A stretch of DNA of 25,040 bases from a bacterium (GCA_021372535.1 JAJFUH010000146.1:1-25040); one strand, 5' to 3'; positions 5,288 to 18,638 are shown, numbered from the stretch's first letter. Notes: generated by a model from the sequence alone, not told the origin. Made by a program: numbers and translations.

Positions 5288-5421
5288 CCGCTGCCGTCCC
5301 GGACAGAGTACGGTAATCGCGACTGTATATGGTTTTATTCCAACGGATTGATTATTGCTTTCAGCCCGGATTTGTATACATTTTACTGCATAATACAACT
5401 CATATGATCGAGGAGTCTTTA

Positions 5422-6864
5422 ATGAACAGAAGAAAGCTGTTGGGATTCATGTTTGCCGGTACCGGATTCATACTGGCGAATGCCGTCATGATTTTCGCCG
5501 CAACCGAAGCCGACCGTAAAATTGAGGTTGAACAGTGGGACAAGCAGCATCTCCGTTATGGCCAGGGAGTGGTTACGGATACTGCGAAGGAGTTTCTCAA
5601 GATACCCGATGGATATCCCGGAGTTATCAATTTCAAGGTGGCAAAAGCGGTTCCCGAAATAGATTTTACGCCGATACGGCATCAGATTCCTTATTTTTTC
5701 CCGGAGGATAACAAGGGATTGTGGTCGCAGTGGGGAGAGGTTACCAAAGGTCCCAACGGCTGTTTTTACATGGCGACCGGCGATCATCGCTGTAAGGACG
5801 GCCATGTGTTTATCACCGAATACAATCCGTCCCTAAAGGAACAGCGGATAGTTGTGGATGTCGGCAAGGTATGCGGATGGAAAAAGGGACAGTATGTGGA
5901 CGGGAAAATCCACGGGCGCATGGATATCCTTCCCGATGGCACGCTCGTTGCCGCCACATGGCTCGGCCGTAATGTGACTGCGGACGATCTCGATCACGGG
6001 TTTGTCAACGGGGGACATCTCCTGACCTATAATATTTACACTGGTATGGCGAAATATCATGGTATCCCCTTTCTCGGTGACAGCTGGCCCTATTACTCGG
6101 TGGACAAACAGACCGGTGTGCTCATGGCAATCGGAAACGATAAGAATTTCATGGCATACAATGTAATCACCGACAGGCTGCTGTACGGCGGAAAACCTCC
6201 TGCGGGCATGATATGGAATTCACGGTCGATGCTCCTCGATGAAAAAACCGGGTTCGTCTACAGCACCGATACGAAAATCGACCATAACTTCAAACCCGAC
6301 AAGGATACATATCCCTTCCTCCGTTTCGACCAGTTCACCAACACATTCACCCGCCTGTCCTGTACGGTACCGGTCAATCCGGAGACCGGCCTGTGTTCCA
6401 ACATCCGGACATATTCCGCGCGCCGCACACCGGAACAGTTTTTCTGGTGTTTCGATTACCAGGGGACACTGTTCAAATTTTACCCCGATGAGGAAAAAAC
6501 GGAACTCGTGGGTGTCAACTGGGATAAAGCCGGGGTTTACGCCACAAGCATGGCTATGAGCCCCCGCTGCCGTTATATCTACTATATCCCCTCCGAAAGC
6601 GGAAGAGCGCACAAATGGGGAACGCCGGTAATCCAGTACGATACCCGGGACGATGTCAAAAAAGTGATCGCATTTCTCGCTCCCTTTTACCATGAGAAAT
6701 ACGGCTACGTCGCGGGAGGAACGTTCGGTATAGAATTGAGCGGGGACGGCTCGCTGCTGGTTATAGAGATGAACGGAACATTCGGTCCGTGGACCGATAA
6801 AACCTCGTATGGCCAGGTGTCCATTTTTGCCGTTCATATTCCCGAATCGGAACGAATCGAATAG
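5422..6864 (+). CDS. Hypothetical exported protein (~480 aa), possibly beta-propeller-like. The N-terminus resembles a Tat/Sec signal (MNRRKLLGFMFAGTGFILANAVMIFAATEA). I recognise no domain.
   Basis: Long ORF. GAGGAG RBS at 5410-5415, 6 nt before ATG 5422. RR-x-LL motif. The track start 5329 lies upstream of the RBS. Confidence 0.7.
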   Translation: MNRRKLLGFMFAGTGFILANAVMIFAATEADRKIEVEQWDKQHLRYGQGVVTDTAKEFLKIPDGYPGVINFKVAKAVPEIDFTPIRHQIPYFFPEDNKGLWSQWGEVTKGPNGCFYMATGDHRCKDGHVFITEYNPSLKEQRIVVDVGKVCGWKKGQYVDGKIHGRMDILPDGTLVAATWLGRNVTADDLDHGFVNGGHLLTYNIYTGMAKYHGIPFLGDSWPYYSVDKQTGVLMAIGNDKNFMAYNVITDRLLYGGKPPAGMIWNSRSMLLDEKTGFVYSTDTKIDHNFKPDKDTYPFLRFDQFTNTFTRLSCTVPVNPETGLCSNIRTYSARRTPEQFFWCFDYQGTLFKFYPDEEKTELVGVNWDKAGVYATSMAMSPRCRYIYYIPSESGRAHKWGTPVIQYDTRDDVKKVIAFLAPFYHEKYGYVAGGTFGIELSGDGSLLVIEMNGTFGPWTDKTSYGQVSIFAVHIPESERIE

Positions 6865-7917: not shown

Positions 7918-8634
7918 ATGGCAGATAATGCTCGGATACATCCCCCGCTCGGCACTACCGAGCGGATTGAATTGACCATCTCCTACGGACTCAAGATTCT
8001 TGTCCTCGGAACGATTATCCTGAGCGTGAGAAGATTCAACCTGTTTCTTATTACTTCCGCTGCCGTAATTCTTTTTTTCAGCGCACTCCCTGCGATGATC
8101 GAACACAGATTCAGGATAACATTACCGGTCGAGGTCGATCTTGCGGTAACGGCGTTTATTTTTCTCCATTTTATCCTCGGGGAAGTACGGGATTATTACA
8201 ACCGTTTCTGGTGGTTCGATTTGCCGCTTCACATATCCTCGGGCATCATGATCGGTCTCGTCGGCTTTGTCATCATCTATTTTTTCCTCTATACGAACCG
8301 TATCAGGGCTAATCCTCTTATGGTGTCCGTTTTCAGCGTCTCTTTTTCACTTGCCGCAGGCGCACTCTGGGAAATATTCGAATTTTTCATGGATTCCATC
8401 TTTGGATTCAACATGCAGAAAACCGGTCTCGTCGACACGATGACCGATCTGATCGTTGATTTTCTGGGAGCATGTGTCGTCGGTATTGCAGCATACCGTT
8501 ACCTGAAAAAAGGAGAGGGCGGCCCTTTAAAATCACTGGTCAACCGATTCATCCAATATAATGTCCGTCTCCGGATAAGAAGGCAGATAAGAAGAGTGAA
8601 GAAAAATGAATCAATGAATAATAAGTCAGCATAA
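7918..8634 (+). CDS. Hypothetical polytopic membrane protein (about 6 predicted TM segments, basic C-terminal tail). It lies 10 nt downstream of the flavodoxin gene and is probably co-transcribed with it.
   Basis: Hydrophobic segments are visible in the translation. I recognise no domain with certainty; a DUF2238/YjdF-like resemblance is only a guess. Confidence 0.65.
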   Translation: MADNARIHPPLGTTERIELTISYGLKILVLGTIILSVRRFNLFLITSAAVILFFSALPAMIEHRFRITLPVEVDLAVTAFIFLHFILGEVRDYYNRFWWFDLPLHISSGIMIGLVGFVIIYFFLYTNRIRANPLMVSVFSVSFSLAAGALWEIFEFFMDSIFGFNMQKTGLVDTMTDLIVDFLGACVVGIAAYRYLKKGEGGPLKSLVNRFIQYNVRLRIRRQIRRVKKNESMNNKSA

Positions 8635-8653
8635 TATCAATACTTATAAAATA

Positions 8654-10804
8654 TTATCGAAGAAGCATCATTCTCCCCGTTTTTACCGCAGAGTCAGTCG
8701 TAATCCTGTAGAAATAGATTCCCGATGCAGAAGTTTTACCGTTATCCGACCGCGAATCCCACATGACACTGCTTCTTCCGGCGGGGAATCGGCCCGATGC
8801 GAGTGTCCGGACCTTCTGGCCGTCAACAGCATATACCGTAACGGTGACTTCACCGGGGTCGGGAAGCACAAAATAAATTGTCGTGGAGGGATTGAACGGA
8901 TTGGGGTAGTTACCCGCCGTTATAAACGGTTCGGGTTTCCTGTTTTCCGCAACATGTTCCGGTGTGGGATAAAACTCATAGAGCCCGTAAAACTGTGATC
9001 GTTCATTGGTTGTGCTGTTGACATCGAAAGCATTGACCACATAACGTCCTTTACCGTCAGCCGCAAACCTGTCCGCAGCCCACGGCAGTTCCGGGATACT
9101 GTGCCAGGTGTCATCTTCGATATAACCGGTAGTTCCCAGACCCGAGGCCCATACCCTTTCCTCCTCATCAATCTCGACCATCCTCCCGCCGTTGAGGTAG
9201 GTAACATCTTTCCAGTCATCGTACTTGGTCCACCATGAAAGGTTATTTTTACGGGCACACCAGAGACGTCCGTCGCTGCCAATGGCAATATCCATGTCGT
9301 AAATCGTGTTGCTCGCGTGGCTCTCCCATACCTCTTCACGATCCTCGTCATACGAAACGATAGCGCCATAATTGGTCTGCATATAGAGTACACCGTCAGG
9401 ATCATAATTCATGTTGTAAAAGACCTTGAAGGGGTACAACCATTTAGGGTTGACCTTAAAATACACCGCAGGGTCCTTATATTCAATTAGACCGCCATAC
9501 GAAGCGATCCACATTGTCCCGCCCTCATCCCATGCAACATCGGCCACATTAACAGCTTTCAGGGTATCGATTGCAGCCCATGCTTTTCCGTTGAATACTT
9601 TCAATCCGTCATCCGTATGAGCGATAATCTCGTCATACGGCGAACGTTTCAGCAGATAGACATTGTAGAGATAAAGATCACCGTCTGTATTGAAGCTGTG
9701 CCAGTCAGTGCCGTTCCAGACGCTGATCCCGCAGTTTTTTCTCTCATCGACCGGTATATCTCTCAATCCATGACCGCACATGAGTGTTCCATCTCCGGTG
9801 TACACCATGCATGTCACCGTATCGGATGCGAGATCGAGGTTGTTTTTCACCTCGACCCATTCCGCGCCGGAATAAGTGAAAACCCGGAATGAATCAAAAA
9901 TCCAGACTTTACCGTCGGAATCTTCGGTCAGGAAATTCTGCCGGTTCGTTATTCCCTTTACGATTGTGCGCGAAACCTGCCATTTCCCGGAATCATCGAG
10001 CCTGTACAGTACACTGTTTTTGTATCCCCATATTCTGCCCGAGCTGTCAAAAGTCAGAAACATGGGTCCTGCCCCACCATCACCGAATGTCCAGGAACCG
10101 TCACGGTAAATCCCATAGCGGCCGAGGTTGTTGACCCACACAGCGCCATCCGTGGCAACCTGCACGGTTAATTCATTGGTCTTTGCCGGCAAAATGGCTG
10201 CAATCTCTCCGGAACGGTCGGTCCATGTCCCGCCATCGAGAACGACAAGACCCATCGTGCTGCTTTCGGGATTGATCACAGTCGCCCATACTTTACCCGA
10301 AGCATCCACCGCAAGCGATCGTGTCCGCCCCGTCTTCAGTTTTTTAACCGCTGTGCCGTCGAAGGAATACACACCACCCAGGGTAATGTCATACATACCG
10401 AAGTAGACGATCCCGTTACGGTCAGCTGCTGCGATGATCGGATACCGTATCTCCTGCCCCGTGTACCGTGTTATTATCCCCTGATCGAGCACCAGAAGAT
10501 CGCCGTAATCCTCAAAGTAAAACCGCCCGTGTTCATCGCGGAAAAACGGTGTATGATCACGGAGGGTCTGATCACCATACGTGTATTTTTTCCAGCGTTC
10601 TCCATCGAAAGCATGGAGCGTATTCAGCGTGGAAACCCAGATTTTGCAGTCATTACCGGGGAAAATGGCGGTTATGTCATATTGAGGTGTCTGGCGCTCG
10701 TGATGAATCCATCTTCCTGCGGGAAGGTCTCCCCGGGCATGATGGGGAATGCATAAAAGCAGAACAGCAAGCGCTGAATAAAAATAACCGGTAGTTTTTT
10801 CCAT
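8654..10804 (-). CDS. T9SS-secreted beta-propeller protein. It has a signal peptide, repeated Trp-containing Reg_prop (two-component regulator propeller)-like blades (GKVWATV, GAVWVNN, GRIWGYK, GKVWIFD, GTMWIASYGG) and a C-terminal type-A T9SS sorting domain (NYPNPFNPSTTIYFVLP…VTVYAVDGQKVRTL…GIYFYRITTD…MMLLR).
   Basis: CTD and propeller motifs recognised in the translation. Codon 10816 in the track is TTG; ATG 10804 (MEKTTGYFYSALAVLLLC…) is the likelier start. Confidence 0.85.
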   Translation of the reverse strand: MEKTTGYFYSALAVLLLCIPHHARGDLPAGRWIHHERQTPQYDITAIFPGNDCKIWVSTLNTLHAFDGERWKKYTYGDQTLRDHTPFFRDEHGRFYFEDYGDLLVLDQGIITRYTGQEIRYPIIAAADRNGIVYFGMYDITLGGVYSFDGTAVKKLKTGRTRSLAVDASGKVWATVINPESSTMGLVVLDGGTWTDRSGEIAAILPAKTNELTVQVATDGAVWVNNLGRYGIYRDGSWTFGDGGAGPMFLTFDSSGRIWGYKNSVLYRLDDSGKWQVSRTIVKGITNRQNFLTEDSDGKVWIFDSFRVFTYSGAEWVEVKNNLDLASDTVTCMVYTGDGTLMCGHGLRDIPVDERKNCGISVWNGTDWHSFNTDGDLYLYNVYLLKRSPYDEIIAHTDDGLKVFNGKAWAAIDTLKAVNVADVAWDEGGTMWIASYGGLIEYKDPAVYFKVNPKWLYPFKVFYNMNYDPDGVLYMQTNYGAIVSYDEDREEVWESHASNTIYDMDIAIGSDGRLWCARKNNLSWWTKYDDWKDVTYLNGGRMVEIDEEERVWASGLGTTGYIEDDTWHSIPELPWAADRFAADGKGRYVVNAFDVNSTTNERSQFYGLYEFYPTPEHVAENRKPEPFITAGNYPNPFNPSTTIYFVLPDPGEVTVTVYAVDGQKVRTLASGRFPAGRSSVMWDSRSDNGKTSASGIYFYRITTDSAVKTGRMMLLR

Positions 10805-10816
10805 AAAAGATTTCAA

Positions 10817-10826
10817 ATCCGATCTA
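10817..10826. repeat. Left copy of the perfect 10-bp direct repeat ATCCGATCTA. Its partner lies at 12021..12030. Together they bracket AT-rich island 1.
   Basis: Exact match found by eye. The repeat lies immediately upstream of the propeller gene start. Confidence 0.5.
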
Positions 10827-10947
10827 TTTATAAAAATTGATAGGACAAGGATTTTTACAAATTATAAATAATTACACAAAGGAAATAATATAAACAGTTT
10901 CACACTTTGTCAAATGCTTTGCTTAATTAAAGCTATAGCCAGTAAAT

Positions 10948-11730
10948 TTATTTAATTTCAAGACTTTTTAAATACTTAAAAATATCTTCTGATTCAAGCT
11001 GACTATAAATTCTATTTGAAATATTATCATCAATGAAGTCCAAATAAAAATAATTTGTATCAGTAAAAGCGTCTTTTATATTTATGATAATTTGTGTTTT
11101 ATAATATATATTTTCTGGTATATCATTTTCTGATTGGACTTCTTTTATTGAATATCTAGCCCAATAATAAGTATCATAAAGTATTCCAATATCGTTTGTA
11201 TACAAATATAAAAAATGCAAGACAAACTCAGAATCTTTAGGAAATTGTATTATTGGATATTTCTCATCGAATATTTTTGTTTGATTATTTTTCAATTCAA
11301 TATTTTGATAAAAGTCAGGGAAAAGTATAGCTGACTTTAATTGTCTATTTCTTAATTTTTTATCTAAAAGAATATTTCTTAACATTGTATAACCGGCGGT
11401 TGAATCAGTCTGAATCACTGCACATAATCTTGCAGAATGATTACCCTCATTCTTAACCTCCAATTTTAATCTTAAAGAATCTATTTCAACAAAAAATTCT
11501 ATTATATGATTATCCGTTGTAATTGTTTTTTCAGGTAATATTTTAGGAATAAAAAACTCAATAAGTGGTTCCTTTTGGATAACTAGGTTTGGCTTGTATT
11601 CCATAGATCTTATTTGGAAATTCATTTTATTTATTTTAGCATTCTGTTTTACATTAGAATAATAACCAAATATTGATATTAATATAGCAATAATAGTAAA
11701 AAACCAATGAATAACTTTTTCTTTTTTCAT
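10948..11730 (-). CDS. Orphan hypothetical protein (~260 aa) with an N-terminal membrane anchor (MKKEKVIHWFFTIIAILISIFGYY) and an Asn/Ile/Lys/Tyr-rich body. It is encoded in a strongly AT-rich island.
   Basis: The ORF is open to 11898, but ATG 11730 has a GAGG RBS 7 nt upstream and begins the hydrophobic anchor. Composition differs sharply from neighbouring genes. No domain recognised. Confidence 0.6.
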   Translation of the reverse strand: MKKEKVIHWFFTIIAILISIFGYYSNVKQNAKINKMNFQIRSMEYKPNLVIQKEPLIEFFIPKILPEKTITTDNHIIEFFVEIDSLRLKLEVKNEGNHSARLCAVIQTDSTAGYTMLRNILLDKKLRNRQLKSAILFPDFYQNIELKNNQTKIFDEKYPIIQFPKDSEFVLHFLYLYTNDIGILYDTYYWARYSIKEVQSENDIPENIYYKTQIIINIKDAFTDTNYFYLDFIDDNISNRIYSQLESEDIFKYLKSLEIK

Positions 11731-12020
11731 TTTCAACCTCTGCATATACAATTTATGTAGATAATTGAAAATAATATTGTTAATAATGTATTTAAATCTC
11801 CAAATCAACCGCTTTGTTTTCTCTAGGTCAAGCACATAGATACCCGCCACATTGATTGAACTGTGATCGCAATACCTCTGCATTTCCCTAATACTCATTC
11901 CTTATTAAAACCCAAACGCGATTAATCTATCCTAATAACCATATATATTATCAATAAGTTATATATGATATGTTAAACTTATTCTCCTCTTAGTCTTCGC
12001 GTGAAATTTTTCCCCAAATG

Positions 12021-12030
12021 ATCCGATCTA
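12021..12030. repeat. Right copy of the 10-bp direct repeat ATCCGATCTA.
   Basis: Exact match to 10817..10826. Confidence 0.5.
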
Positions 12031-12082: not shown

Positions 12083-13027
12083 TTATTCTTTCTTGCCGAT
12101 CGAATCGACGATTATGGCAAAAATGAGGACAATTCCCGTAACAAATTCCTGCCAGTACGAATCGACCGGCATGATATTGATCGCGGAATCGATAGTCGCC
12201 ATGAGCATGGCACCGAAAAAAGCGCCGAGAACAGTCCCCTTCCCGCCGGTCAGAGCGCATCCGCCGATTATCGCGGCGGTCACGACCTTGAATTCCATGC
12301 TGACGCCCGCGGTCAGCGAGCCGTTCCCCAGCCGCGCGCTGAGCAGTATTCCTGCTATCGCGGCAAGCGCGCCCGAAAGCATATAGTTCTGAATCTTTAT
12401 TTTTGCCACGGGGATACCGGAAAGAACCGCCGCGTTCTCATTTCCGCCGATATAATAGTTCTGCCGGAAATACCGCGATTTTCTGAGCATGAAATCTCCC
12501 CCGGCGACACACGCGAGACACACCCATATGGGAATCTGCACACCGGCGAGTGTCTCCTGCCCGATCCAGGTATATGCCTTGTTCATGATCGGGATGTTAT
12601 TTCCCCCGGAGATGATGGTTGCAAGCCCTCTGATAAAAATCATCATGCCGAGGGTCGTAATAAAGGGATTGATGCGGAGCTTCGCAATCATCAATCCGTT
12701 TCCGAACCCGATCAGCGTTCCGCAGAGAACCGCCACAACCATGGCGACGATCCATGGCTGTCCGGACTTGAGAACGAGCGCCGCCGTAACTCCGCTGAAT
12801 GTCACCACGGAGCCGACAGACAGATCGAATCCGCCGGATACGAGCAGCACGGTCATCCCGACAGCGATGACCGCAATCGATGACATGGCGAGCACGGTGG
12901 CTCTGAGAACGGCTGGATTGAGAAATTCCCGGGGATAAAAAATCGTCATTATCACCCAGAAACCGAGAAGAATGAAAAATATGCGCCGCTCCTGGAACCT
13001 TCCGATGAGACGAATAATTGCTTTCAT
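12083..13027 (-). CDS. Sugar ABC transporter permease of the CUT2/RbsC-like (BPD_transp_2) family.
   Basis: Polytopic membrane protein with the typical RbsC-like conserved region (…GGFDLSVGSV…GIPVAKIKI…). Its start overlaps the ATPase stop by 4 nt (ATGA), indicating translational coupling. Confidence 0.85.
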   Translation of the reverse strand: MKAIIRLIGRFQERRIFFILLGFWVIMTIFYPREFLNPAVLRATVLAMSSIAVIAVGMTVLLVSGGFDLSVGSVVTFSGVTAALVLKSGQPWIVAMVVAVLCGTLIGFGNGLMIAKLRINPFITTLGMMIFIRGLATIISGGNNIPIMNKAYTWIGQETLAGVQIPIWVCLACVAGGDFMLRKSRYFRQNYYIGGNENAAVLSGIPVAKIKIQNYMLSGALAAIAGILLSARLGNGSLTAGVSMEFKVVTAAIIGGCALTGGKGTVLGAFFGAMLMATIDSAINIMPVDSYWQEFVTGIVLIFAIIVDSIGKKE

Positions 13028-16917: not shown

Positions 16918-17069
16918 AAACATACCTCACCTGTGAAAACAATGAATTATTATGGAAATTTTATTGCTTTTCCGGTGTTTCCGAGGTTTTCAATATAATT
17001 CTATTAGGGGGAGCATTCAAGATAAAATCGTGTCTTCATCAGATCAACTTGTAAAAATCAATAGTAATG

Positions 17070-17104
17070 CGGATTTACACGGATAGAGCGGATTAACGCG
17101 GATT
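17070..17104. promoter_or_regulatory. Array of four CGGAT(T/A) motifs phased 9-10 nt apart (gCGGATTtacaCGGATAgagCGGATTaacgCGGATTcg). It sits ~150-185 nt upstream of the sugar ABC operon start and is a candidate operator or regulator-binding array.
   Basis: Seen in the sequence. The helical phasing suggests protein binding on one DNA face. The first 17 nt also match a motif at 6892-6908. Confidence 0.3.
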
Positions 17105-17620
17105 CGTTTTTAAAAGTCTGAACAGTTGTGTCTGGTCAAAATATTGAGAAACTCTTGTATGAATTAGAACATAATAATTGCCAACTTTAATCATAGAAAC
17201 TCACCCCGCGCATAACACTTTGATAAAACGGATTTTAGCTGGCGCTTCACCTCTCTTGGAAAGAGAGGGGATCGATGGGTTAGTTCTGGTGGGGAATAGG
17301 AGTGACAATCATATTCAAAACAATCCACAAGCAGGTAAAAGCTCTATTTACATATTTTTCAAACTGTTATTACAATTTAACCGGAGAGTTCTGGTATTCT
17401 ATATTATTATCATTTTCGCTTCGAATAATGCGAGCTCGAGTAATAGTCTATATCTGGAGACTACTCATCCAAAAGACTTTATTAAGACACATAAATATGC
17501 ATATCTTCGTGACTAGGTATTAATAAAAGTGTTTTGTGTAATCGACGCCCTGTTCGATAAAAAAAACGAGTTATTATTTGTAGATCATTGAGAAATATTT
17601 TTTGCATTCTGTTCCCTATT

Positions 17621-18118
17621 TTATAATATAAGTTCTACTTCTGAGTTTATATCTTTTGTAATAGAAATTGCATACGTAAAAAAATCATCGTTAAGAGATT
17701 CAGCTCGCGAGAGATTAGCATATTCTATATACTTTAGATTTTCCCATCTCATAAAATCCGATGTGGGTACTGTCATAAAACCATCTGCTTGACTTATTGC
17801 CCATGCGTATGTAGAAGGGTTTTTATTTTGCATAGCATATTGAAAATCGATCTTTATAATTTCATAATATAATTCCTTTCCTTTTATCCATTTTTTGGCA
17901 TTCTTTTTTTCATTTTCGTCTTTATAGTTAGCGTTATTATAAATGACATTAAATTCAATCTGCATGCTTTCAACTATTTTAAAAAGCTTAGAAAATTGAA
18001 TCATTGTTGCATCCGAAAGGATTTCTTTGTTTTCATTCATCTCATTTTTCTGTACTTGAGGCTGACACCCATACATTAGAGAAAACACCAACAATAATGA
18101 AAACATTAATCTTTTCAT
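17621..18118 (-). CDS. Orphan small lipoprotein (165 aa; MKRLMFSLLLVFSLMYGC lipobox) in AT-rich island 2.
   Basis: Clean ORF with signal peptide and lipobox cysteine. Composition is very AT-rich relative to the core genes. No domain recognised. Confidence 0.6.
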   Translation of the reverse strand: MKRLMFSLLLVFSLMYGCQPQVQKNEMNENKEILSDATMIQFSKLFKIVESMQIEFNVIYNNANYKDENEKKNAKKWIKGKELYYEIIKIDFQYAMQNKNPSTYAWAISQADGFMTVPTSDFMRWENLKYIEYANLSRAESLNDDFFTYAISITKDINSEVELIL

Positions 18119-18582
18119 TACATTTCTCCTTTTTGGGGTGTAACAAAATAATATACTCTTTAATAATTTAATATGTACAGATGTTTCGTAAAAAACAAGA
18201 AAAAAGTGTCGATTTTTCGTATACTTTTTGTTTTTCCACTGAGTGTGTACTTACTCTTTTTATTCTCTGATCTCTTTTAACATCACGAGCAAGTTTTCAG
18301 GTGCTTTTGAAGCATCTTCAGGAGTATAACAAGCCAGTCTTACAGTTTTCTAACAAGTCTTTATAAGTAGTATGTCTTATGTGTGATTTCTGTCAGTCTA
18401 CAGAACTCACGCATAGTGTTATATAAGCTTATACCAAGTTGTGGTCATACAGGTAACTATAGCAACTCATTGATTATTAATGCTAAAACAGGTTCAGCAT
18501 GACGGCGCTCATGTCACCCTGAATTTATTTCAGGGTCTATTGCATACGTTATTACTTCATTGAACGCATTTTGATATGAGAT

Positions 18583-18614
18583 AAAAAAAAGGCACCCCGC
18601 AACAGGATGCCTTT
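18583..18614 (-). terminator. Rho-independent terminator for the CRTAC1-like gene. On the minus strand it reads AGGCAUCC-uguugc-GGGGUGCCU followed by U9.
   Basis: ~8-bp stem (one G·U pair) plus a 9-nt T-tract, ~25 nt after stop 18639. Confidence 0.75.
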
Positions 18615-18638
18615 TATCAACCGCTGTATTTCCACTGT

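What the first reader, a model, noticed from the sequence alone, without database searches (positions are those of the whole stretch)
10817..12030. AT-rich ~1.2-kb island with one orphan gene, bracketed by a perfect 10-bp direct repeat
The interval between the propeller gene start and the ABC permease gene end is far more AT-rich than the surrounding genes. By eye it is about 25-35% G+C against 55-60% in the core genes. It encodes one membrane-anchored orphan protein (10948-11730) with Asn/Ile/Tyr/Lys-rich composition. The perfect 10-mer ATCCGATCTA occurs at both edges (10817-10826 and 12021-12030). Such a match is improbable by chance within ~100-bp boundary windows and resembles a target-site duplication or att-core repeat of an inserted cassette. 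No transposase or integrase gene and no obvious terminal inverted repeats are present, so the insertion mechanism is unclear.
Basis: partly seen in the sequence, partly recalled or inferred. Interest (0 to 1): 0.65.

Follow-up and report, generated by a model that had tools for sequence, protein, structure and literature searches.

The report
Foreign AT-rich single-gene islet insertion
About 1.2 kb of foreign, AT-rich DNA carrying one membrane-protein gene sits between two conserved genes of a Latescibacterota genome; this is an ordinary kind of horizontal gene gain, the gene is not a true orphan, and the 10-base repeat at its edges may or may not be the scar of the insertion.

Summary
ATCCGATCTA occurs only at 10817-10826 and 12021-12030. 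The bracketed interval has 25.5% G+C, against 50-55% in the flanking genes. It holds one gene, 10948-11730 on the minus strand, with GC3 of 16%.

The window is a whole contig of a Latescibacterota MAG. Seven related loci keep the order ABC permease then T9SS propeller, with a spacer of only about 54-305 bp and no gene in it. The interval is therefore a lineage-specific insertion.

The gene is not an orphan. A profile search finds 331 clusters of about 260-aa proteins that no library names. Each has an N-terminal membrane anchor, an outward-facing Ig-like beta-sandwich (model pLDDT 88.7) and a C-terminal helix. The family has no fixed neighbours. It is AT-rich relative to higher-GC hosts and lies beside tyrosine integrases in three loci.

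The 10-mer as an insertion scar is unproven. A chance match has probability 1.8% at the outer edges and 16% anywhere in the two spacers. There are no terminal inverted repeats, no recombinase and no structured site. No relative is close enough to show a single-copy empty site. A second AT-rich islet in the same contig has no such repeat.

Verdict: an ordinary horizontally acquired islet. The scar reading is about even odds.

The parts
10817..10826 (.). Left copy of the direct repeat ATCCGATCTA. It starts 12 nt upstream of the propeller gene's ATG (10804, minus strand).
12021..12030 (.). Right copy of the direct repeat ATCCGATCTA. It ends 52 nt downstream of the ABC permease stop codon (12083-12085, minus strand).
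10827..12020 (.). AT-rich segment bounded by the repeat (1194 bp; 10817-12030 has 25.5% G+C). It is absent from the orthologous spacer of seven related loci.
10948..11730 (-). Cargo gene of 260 aa (NCBI MCE5251109.1), G+C 23.5%, GC3 16%. It has an N-terminal signal-anchor helix, an extracytoplasmic Ig-like beta-sandwich and a C-terminal helix. It is a member of an unnamed family of at least 331 clusters.
11737..11740 (-). Shine-Dalgarno-like GAGG, 7-10 nt upstream of the cargo gene's ATG. Similar motifs precede most core genes of the contig.
   Evidence: sequence read directly
11947..11976 (-). Sigma-70-like promoter match (TTAACA-18-GATAAT, 10 of 12), about 220 nt upstream of the cargo gene. 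This is a consensus match only.
10885..10913 (-). Strong sigma-70-like promoter match (TTGACA-17-TATTAT, 11 of 12). It lies inside the repeat-bounded segment, downstream of the cargo gene and about 80 nt upstream of the propeller ATG. This is a consensus match only.
8654..10804 (-). Conserved flank: beta-propeller protein sorted by the type IX secretion system (T9SS; Reg_prop repeats, FlgD_ig / Por_Secre_tail C-terminus).
12083..13027 (-). Conserved flank: ABC permease (BPD_transp_2). It is the last gene of the DUF4380-SBP-ATPase-permease operon.

Best explanation
The interval is a horizontally acquired, non-autonomous, single-gene islet. About 1.2 kb of low-GC DNA entered the short spacer between the last gene of a sugar-type ABC transporter operon and a T9SS-sorted beta-propeller gene. 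This happened in the lineage of this Latescibacterota MAG, after it split from all seven available relatives. That step is shown, and I put it at about 0.85.

The cargo is a bitopic envelope protein of a large, unnamed and fast-evolving family. It has a signal-anchor helix with the N-terminus inside, a helical stalk, an Ig-like beta-sandwich facing the periplasm, and a C-terminal helix. The architecture is shown; what the protein does is not. I infer an accessory envelope role, perhaps exclusion or defence, only from the family's nomadic occurrence next to integrases, a toxin-antitoxin pair, a helicase and a restriction enzyme.

The gene carries its own Shine-Dalgarno-like motif and promoter-like sites, so it is probably expressed on its own.

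The exact 10-bp direct repeat is most simply read as the junction footprint of one integration event. In that reading a circular intermediate crossed over with the chromosome at a 10-bp identity. The crossover could have been made by a tyrosine recombinase acting in trans, or by one later deleted (a CIME-like remnant), or by illegitimate recombination at a microhomology. The product would be attL-islet-attR. This last step is inference, at about 0.5 on its own. The overall confidence of 0.5 given for this explanation is for the whole statement including the footprint step.
For: Insertion:
- The order DUF4380-SBP-ATPase-permease-propeller is conserved in L002-L007. L023, a short contig, keeps the permease-propeller junction.
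- Their permease-propeller spacers are about 54-305 bp, against 1278 bp here.

Foreign composition:
- Gene G+C is 0.235 and GC3 is 0.161, against GC3 of 0.53-0.73 in neighbours.
- FYMINK residues are 0.47 and GARP residues 0.11, the second most AT-type of 60 family members.

Real gene in a real family:
- 331 clusters have E<=1e-3 and 227 have E<=1e-10, nearly all full length at 245-290 aa.
- Conserved motifs are visible in the 60-sequence alignment.
- The AlphaFold2 (AF2) model has pLDDT 88.7 and pTM 0.84.
- N-in/C-out topology: net charge is +2.8 on the N side and -0.3 on the C side, and 53 of 60 sequences are more positive on the N side.

Nomadic family:
- It has no conserved neighbour.
- It is lower in G+C than its flanks in L001, L010, L016 and L025.
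- It is integrase-adjacent in L018, L026 and L029, the last beside tRNA-Gly and tRNA-Cys.
- The nearest relative, P0017 (36% identity, neighbour-joining sister), is in another Latescibacterota MAG at a different locus and is also AT-rich.

Repeat:
- It is exact and unique in the window and absent from the 28 loci held when one search was run.
- It lies at the outermost edges of the spacer; the chance of that is 1.8%.
- Removing one copy plus the segment leaves a 74-nt spacer, inside the 54-305 nt range of the relatives.
Against: - No empty site with a single copy of the 10-mer was found, because the spacers of the relatives cannot be aligned.
- A direct word of 10 nt or more anywhere between the two AT-rich non-coding stretches arises in 16% of shuffles. 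About eight AT-rich intervals were open to inspection.
- There are no inverted repeats, no recombinase, no tRNA, no structured site and no Rfam match.
- The second gene-carrying islet (16924-18638) has no flanking repeat of 8 nt or more.
- No flanking repeat or shared non-coding sequence recurs at other family loci.
- The native spacers of relatives are themselves AT-rich in four of six (G+C 0.26-0.33). Part of the AT-rich non-coding DNA could therefore be native, and the true junctions could lie inside the repeat.
- The function of the protein is unknown.
Confidence: 0.5

Rival explanations
1. This is the same horizontally acquired islet, but the 10-mer is a coincidence. The DNA would have entered by a route that leaves no long duplication. 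One such route is double-ended illegitimate or homology-facilitated recombination. Another is homologous recombination through the conserved flanking genes, with DNA from a relative that already carried it.
For: In 16% of dinucleotide shuffles, the two non-coding stretches share a direct word of 10 nt or more. Several AT-rich intervals were available for inspection. There are no inverted repeats, no recombinase and no structured site. The second islet and the other family loci show no comparable repeat. Relatives have AT-rich native spacers.
Against: The repeat contains four G/C bases and sits at the outermost edges, bracketing all the AT-rich DNA. The chance of a match placed like that is 1.8%. 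The reconstructed empty spacer of 74 nt is a plausible length.
Confidence: 0.35
2. The islet is a non-autonomous transposon-like cassette. A DDE transposase acting in trans moved it and generated a 10-bp target-site duplication.
For: The direct repeat is exact, 10 bp long and sharp-edged. Lengths of 9-12 bp are typical of some IS families (general knowledge, not tested here).
Against: There are no terminal inverted repeats just inside the repeat copies. There is no transposase in the window. There is no second copy of the islet's non-coding ends in the window or in any fetched locus.
Confidence: 0.07
3. The gene is ancestral at this position and was lost independently, or once, in the relatives.
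For: Only seven relatives are available, and the nearest is distant, with 63% amino-acid identity in the propeller.
Against: All seven lack it, including the nearest, L023. GC3 of 0.16 in a genome whose core genes have 0.53-0.73 is incompatible with long residence. The nearest homologue, in another Latescibacterota MAG, is at an unrelated locus.
Confidence: 0.03
4. The islet is a metagenome assembly chimera: reads from a low-GC organism were spliced into the contig.
For: The window is a MAG contig, and no read data could be examined. Two AT-rich gene-bearing intervals occur within 25 kb, whereas about 95 kb of related loci show no internal one.
Against: A chimera would need two precise junctions inside one intergenic spacer, with perfect synteny restored on the far side, and this would have to happen twice in one contig. 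A 10-bp identity is shorter than usual assembly k-mers (general knowledge). The cargo gene has a host-like Shine-Dalgarno motif. Its nearest relative is in another Latescibacterota MAG, again as an AT-rich gene between GC-rich genes.
Confidence: 0.04

Closest known systems
Laterally acquired 'ORFan'-type genes and genomic islets
   Same: Like these genes, this one is AT-rich relative to the host, narrowly distributed among relatives and lacks annotation. [quoted passage not shown] Here the gene is absent from seven relatives and has GC3 of 0.16.
   Different: It is not an ORFan in the strict sense, because a profile search finds 331 homologous clusters. At 260 aa it is not short. It is a single-gene islet in an intergenic spacer rather than part of a multi-gene island.
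CIMEs (cis-mobilizable elements): integrated elements that have lost their integration and transfer genes but keep attL and attR (PMC6323972)
   Same: The segment has direct repeats at both ends, carries cargo only, and has no recombinase or transfer genes. Family members elsewhere do sit in integrase-bearing islands.
   Different: The repeat is only 10 bp and cannot be shown to be an att site. The site is intergenic, not a tRNA or the 3' end of a conserved gene. No cognate integrase-bearing element is known for this genome. The 1.2-kb size is small, although I did not check published CIME sizes.
Insertion sequences and MITEs with target-site duplications
   Same: The segment is flanked by a short, exact, sharp-edged direct repeat.
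   Different: There are no terminal inverted repeats, no transposase and no other copies. The segment carries a full protein gene.
Integron gene cassettes
   Same: The segment holds one promoter-independent-looking ORF as a discrete unit. The right junction happens to read GTTAGAT, which fits GTTRRRY (read).
   Different: The other junction reads AATAGAT, which does not fit. There is no RYYYAAC partner and no attC-like fold; the 3' non-coding part has a z-score of -0.57. There is no integron integrase.
ApaG/DUF525, TRAP-alpha and TMEM106B-type Ig-like beta-sandwich domains
   Different: Sequence identity is 9-13%. There is no Pfam, NCBIfam or PDB sequence match. Foldseek gives no PDB match at E<=0.001. 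The family has its own motifs (NxGNSxA, DTxSG, HxLxLYxN, YDTYYWAR) and a C-terminal helix. The fold is generic and predicts no function.

Membership tests
Horizontally acquired genomic islet | Absent from the orthologous site of related genomes | tested here: met
   Seven loci have permease-propeller spacers of about 54-305 bp, against 1278 bp here.
Horizontally acquired genomic islet | Composition atypical for the host | tested here: met
   G+C is 25.5% against 47.6% for the contig. GC3 is 0.16 against 0.53-0.73 in core genes.
Transposon / IS / MITE | Target-site duplication | tested here: inconclusive
   An exact 10-bp direct repeat is present. The chance of it is 1.8-16% depending on the null. 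No single-copy empty site is available.
Transposon / IS / MITE | Terminal inverted repeats | tested here: not met
   No inverted repeat pairs the two ends just inside the repeat copies.
Transposon / IS / MITE | Transposase gene, or multiple copies of a non-autonomous element | tested here: not met
   There is no transposase domain in the window. The islet's non-coding DNA has no other copy in the window or in the fetched loci. The rest of the MAG was not available.
Integrase-mediated island / CIME | attL and attR direct repeats | tested here: inconclusive
   A 10-bp repeat is present, but it cannot be shown to be an att core.
Integrase-mediated island / CIME | Tyrosine or serine recombinase in the element (island), or a cognate element elsewhere in the genome (CIME) | tested here: not met
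   There is none in the element or in the 25-kb contig. A cognate element elsewhere in the MAG cannot be tested here.
Integrase-mediated island / CIME | Integration at a tRNA or the 3' end of a conserved gene | tested here: not met
   There is no tRNA or tmRNA in the window. The site is intergenic, 52 nt past the permease stop.
Integron gene cassette | attC site (RYYYAAC ... GTTRRRY, folded imperfect palindrome) at the 3' end of the ORF | tested here: not met
   Only one junction fits GTTRRRY. The 3' non-coding region folds no better than shuffles, with a z-score of -0.57.
Named protein family (Pfam, NCBIfam, PHROGs, PADLOC) | Significant profile match | tested here: not met
   The window's protein has no match in any of the four libraries. 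The 60 family members, scanned against Pfam, NCBIfam and PADLOC, gave only scattered single weak hits.
ApaG/DUF525-like beta-sandwich | Fold similarity together with sequence-profile membership | tested here: not met

The most novel reading that the evidence does not exclude
The 10-mer is a genuine att core. The 1.2-kb segment would then be a minimal, recombinase-less integrative cassette that is excised and inserted in trans by a tyrosine recombinase encoded elsewhere in Latescibacterota genomes. It would ferry members of a large, uncharacterised family of periplasm-facing membrane-anchored proteins that act in phage exclusion or envelope defence. That would make it a single-gene 'hitchhiker' class smaller than known CIMEs, in a candidate phylum with no genetics.
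Probability: 0.12. Interest if true: 0.55.

Novelty: new member of a known kind. Interest (0 to 1): 0.3.

Why it matters
The finding as posed is ordinary. AT-rich, narrowly distributed genes dropped into intergenic spacers are the usual signature of horizontal gain, and nothing here requires a new mechanism.

Two modest points are of use.

First, the supposed orphan defines a sizeable protein family that none of the four libraries searched here names. It has at least 331 clusters at 50% identity. There is now a confident fold and topology for it: a signal anchor followed by a periplasmic Ig-like sandwich. It behaves as mobile accessory cargo, which makes it a reasonable candidate for curation as a new domain family and for defence or exclusion screens.

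Second, the locus offers a clean and cheaply testable case of whether very small, recombinase-less islets in an uncultured phylum integrate at short identities. The predicted empty-site and circular-junction sequences are explicit and can be looked for in reads.

Tried and rejected
1. Exact-sequence look-ups of the window's own proteins found nothing on record.

2. The word-indexed homologue search found only one relative, then three when queried with the family alignment. It badly understated the family; the exhaustive profile search was needed.

3. Structure prediction from the two-sequence alignment was useless, with pLDDT 48. The 60-sequence alignment gave pLDDT 88.7.

4. Fold searches against PDB and viral models gave only generic Ig-like hits. 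The afdb50 library was not available.

5. No relative was found in viral contigs, phage records, plasmid records or PDB sequences.

6. There was no Rfam match at either threshold, no tRNA, and no non-coding fold better than shuffles. I therefore rejected an ncRNA, a tRNA-linked att site and an attC site.

7. I considered the integron cassette idea because the right junction reads GTTAGAT. I rejected it because the left junction does not fit and there is no attC.

8. I looked for flanking repeats at the other AT-rich intervals of the window, at other family loci (L010, L016, L025) and in related loci. Nothing of 10 nt or more turned up, apart from an AT-only word in L025 that overlaps the coding sequence.

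9. Nucleotide comparison of the islet with all loci matched only the conserved YDTYYWAR coding motif.

Full report
**1. The observation**

ATCCGATCTA occurs exactly twice in the window, at 10817-10826 and 12021-12030, on the same strand. None of 100 dinucleotide-preserving shuffles gave two matches. The identity stops sharply at 10 nt; the flanking 20 nt on each side match no better than random (read).

The bracketed interval has 25.5% G+C, against 47.6% for the contig. Its four 300-bp windows read 22-30%, against 48-55% next to it.

One long ORF lies inside, 10948-11730 on the minus strand, 260 aa. It has one N-terminal hydrophobic segment and a composition rich in Ile, Lys, Asn and Tyr. FYMINK residues make up 47%, against 21-36% in the core genes.

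There are no terminal inverted repeats, no tRNA and no Rfam match at either threshold. The non-coding parts fold no better than shuffles. No transposase or integrase is present anywhere in the window.

**2. Where the window comes from**

The orphan matches NCBI protein MCE5251109.1 (LLG96_12905, organism given only as 'bacterium') on a contig of 25,040 bp, which is the window itself. The closest relatives of the flanking genes are all Candidatus Latescibacterota MAGs or single-cell genomes.

The left flank is a T9SS-sorted beta-propeller protein. The right flank is the permease of a DUF4380-SBP-ATPase-permease operon.

**3. Is it an insertion? Yes.**

In six genome loci (L002-L007) the order DUF4380-SBP-ATPase-permease-propeller is conserved. 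The gap from permease to propeller is 54-305 bp and holds no gene.

The contig of the closest propeller orthologue is L023. Its propeller is 63% identical at the amino-acid level and its permease tail 82% at the nucleotide level. It shows the same adjacency with a spacer of about 125-200 bp. In the window the gap is 1278 bp.

Together with a GC3 of 0.16, against 0.53-0.73 in the core genes, this makes gain on the window's branch far more likely than repeated loss.

The 10-mer is absent from the 28 loci held when one search was run, so it is not a common genomic word.

**4. Is the gene an orphan? No.**

The word-indexed search found one homologue: P0002, 30% identity over the full length, E = 6e-36 pairwise.

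A profile of the two sequences, searched exhaustively against 1.84 billion representatives, found 331 clusters at E<=1e-3. Of these, 227 were at E<=1e-10, and nearly all were 245-290 aa and matched end to end.

A 60-sequence alignment shows invariant P47, N94, H172, Y177 and Y188. It also shows the motifs RPxL, NxGNSxA, DTxSG..LR, FTLHxLxLYENexGxLYDTYYWAR and DxNxSxxxYS. The window's protein matches nothing in Pfam, NCBIfam, PHROGs or PADLOC. The 60 family members, scanned against Pfam, NCBIfam and PADLOC, gave only scattered weak hits, and the family profile matches no PDB sequence.

With this alignment AlphaFold2 gives a confident model, pLDDT 88.7 and pTM 0.84. The model has a long N-terminal helix (residues 2-44, comprising the membrane segment and a stalk), a beta-sandwich, and a C-terminal helix (244-259).

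Across the family the N-terminal side of the membrane segment carries a net charge of +2.8, and the C-terminal side -0.3. In 53 of 60 sequences the N side is the more positive. By the positive-inside rule, an established principle, the sandwich faces the periplasm.

**5. How the family behaves**

The family has no conserved neighbour. The contexts found are:
- after GroEL (L010);
- after a sulfide-quinone-reductase-like oxidoreductase (L011);
- between DUF6886 and DUF1028-TPR genes (L015);
- next to a YafQ/RelB toxin-antitoxin pair, in a block of about 0.35 G+C beside a gene of 0.55 G+C (L016);
- between a UvrD-like helicase with DUF6998 and an integrase fragment (L018);
- directly after a truncated integrase, at the edge of about 10 kb of hypothetical genes ending in a Type ISP restriction enzyme (L026);
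- in a tRNA-Gly/tRNA-Cys-integrase-PEGA-family arrangement (L029).

In low-GC contigs the gene has the host's composition. In higher-GC contigs (the window, L001, L010, L016 and L025) it is clearly AT-richer than its flanks.

The nearest relative of the window's protein is P0017, at 36% identity and as a reciprocal best match and neighbour-joining sister. It is in another Latescibacterota MAG, GCA_054642035.1, at an unrelated locus between an ion-channel gene and heparinase II/III-like genes. Its G+C is 0.28, beside a gene of 0.62.

No homologue was found in viral contigs, phage records or plasmid records.

The picture is of itinerant accessory cargo. It is sometimes carried on integrase-borne islands and stays AT-rich in GC-richer hosts. 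That intracellular mobile elements tend to be AT-richer than their hosts is a known pattern (title and abstract of PMC6519830). ORFan-type genes being AT-richer is also documented (PMC3514957).

**6. The 10-bp repeat**

In favour:
- The repeat is exact and not AT-only, with 4 of 10 bases G/C.
- It lies at the extreme edges of the spacer, 12 nt from the propeller ATG and 52 nt from the permease stop, so it brackets all the AT-rich DNA.
- Deleting one copy plus the segment leaves a 74-nt spacer, within the 54-305 nt range of the relatives.
- The chance of a direct word of 10 nt or more between the outer 60 and 100 nt of the two non-coding stretches is 1.8%. For two arbitrary 100-bp windows of the contig it is 1.4%.

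Against:
- Between the two whole non-coding stretches, the chance of any direct word of 10 nt or more is 16%, because they are AT-rich.
- About eight AT-rich intervals could have been inspected.
- There are no inverted repeats, no recombinase and no structured site.
- The second gene-bearing AT-rich islet of the contig (16924-18638) has no flanking repeat of 8 nt or more.
- No other family locus shows a comparable repeat or shares non-coding sequence with this islet.
- The spacers of relatives are themselves AT-rich in four of six cases. Some AT-rich non-coding DNA here may therefore be native, and the true junctions need not be at the 10-mer.
- The spacers of the seven relatives cannot be aligned with the window's flanks, so the single-copy empty-site test could not be done.

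I put the footprint reading at about 0.5.

If the footprint is real, the absence of inverted repeats argues against a DDE-type target-site duplication. It favours a single crossover of a circular intermediate at a short identity. That crossover could be integrase-mediated, followed by loss of the integrase. This would resemble CIMEs, which keep attL and attR but have lost their integration and transfer genes (PMC6323972). Alternatively it could be illegitimate recombination at a microhomology. The family's presence next to tyrosine integrases elsewhere gives slight support to the first option.

**7. Expression signals (consensus matches only)**

The cargo gene has GAGG 7-10 nt upstream of its ATG, like most core genes of the contig. 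A promoter-like site lies about 220 nt upstream of it, at 11976-11947.

The best promoter match of the region is TTGACA-17-TATTAT at 10913-10885. It lies inside the repeat-bounded segment and points at the propeller gene, about 80 nt from its ATG. If the islet interrupted co-transcription of the propeller gene with the ABC operon, this site could now drive it. That is speculation.

**8. Verdict**

The 'inserted cassette' reading is supported as to insertion. The 'orphan' reading is refuted. The 'TSD or att' reading is undecided.

This is an ordinary horizontally acquired single-gene islet, that is, a new member of a known kind. The side product is a large uncharacterised family of membrane-anchored periplasmic Ig-like proteins, now with a confident fold. 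Interest is low to moderate.

Noticed in passing
window 16924-18638: A second AT-rich interval lies between DUF4380 and the FG-GAP gene. Its core, 17001-18400, has 32% G+C. It carries another compositionally foreign gene at 17621-18118 (-): 165 aa, G+C 0.29, GC3 0.27, with a signal-peptide or lipoprotein-like N-terminus, and no Pfam, PHROG or PADLOC match. The orthologous gap is 212 bp in L004 and 806 bp in L005, and no tblastn hit to this ORF was seen in any relative. No flanking direct repeat of 8 nt or more was found.
   Followed up: partly
window 18478-18545: A short hairpin-containing element reads atgctaaaacaggttcagcatgacg...gtcaccctgaatttatttcagggtc. From memory it resembles the widespread REP-like 'MLKQVQHD / TCCTGAA-n-TTCAGGA' repeats of environmental bacteria. 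It sits at the right edge of the second islet.
   Followed up: no
window 10885-10913 (minus strand): The best sigma-70-like promoter match of the region (TTGACA-17-TATTAT, 11 of 12) lies inside the repeat-bounded segment and faces the propeller gene. The inserted DNA may now supply that gene's promoter.
   Followed up: no
L023 2627-4548: In the closest relative's contig, the propeller orthologue is followed directly by a phage-type integrase gene and hypothetical genes, instead of the 7918-8634 and flavodoxin genes seen in the window. The neighbourhood therefore also received foreign DNA in that lineage, but on the other side of the propeller gene.
   Followed up: no
L029 2820-6786; L026 9419-10795; L018 3838-6024: Family members lie in integrase-associated contexts. 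L029 has tRNA-Gly, tRNA-Cys, an integrase, a PEGA protein and then the family gene. L026 has a truncated integrase immediately upstream, followed by about 10 kb of hypothetical genes and a Type ISP restriction enzyme. L018 has a UvrD-like helicase and DUF6998 upstream and an integrase fragment downstream.
   Followed up: partly
L025 1-1556: In a second Latescibacterota MAG, the nearest homologue (P0017) has G+C of 0.28. The ion-channel gene upstream of it is also low, at 0.37, against 0.62 for the downstream heparinase-like genes. The AT-rich block there may hold more than one gene and runs off the contig end.
   Followed up: partly
L001 1015-1211: The flank of the first homologue found (P0002) holds three hairpin repeats of the GTCATTCCCGCGAAAGCGGGAATC / ...CTCGCAATGACA kind. 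These are REP-like elements that were not examined further.
   Followed up: no
P0021, P0036, P0048, P0055, P0085 (family members of 413-510 aa): Some family members are much longer than about 260 aa, with N- or C-terminal extensions. For example, L016 2275-3516 is 413 aa and its extension has no Pfam match. These may be fusions or miscalled starts.
   Followed up: no
window 5329-6864: A 511-aa gene with no Pfam match and normal composition (G+C 0.50) lies between the HD-domain gene and the flavodoxin gene. It gave no tblastn hit above 70 bits in L004 or L007, where those two neighbours are present and 1.0-1.4 kb apart. It is a lineage-specific gene without a compositional signal.
   Followed up: partly
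window as a whole, against L002-L007 and L023-L025: By one criterion (200-bp windows at least 0.13 below the locus mean, over at least 600 bp), the window has three internal AT-rich intervals, two of them with genes. About 95 kb of related Latescibacterota loci have none.
   Followed up: partly
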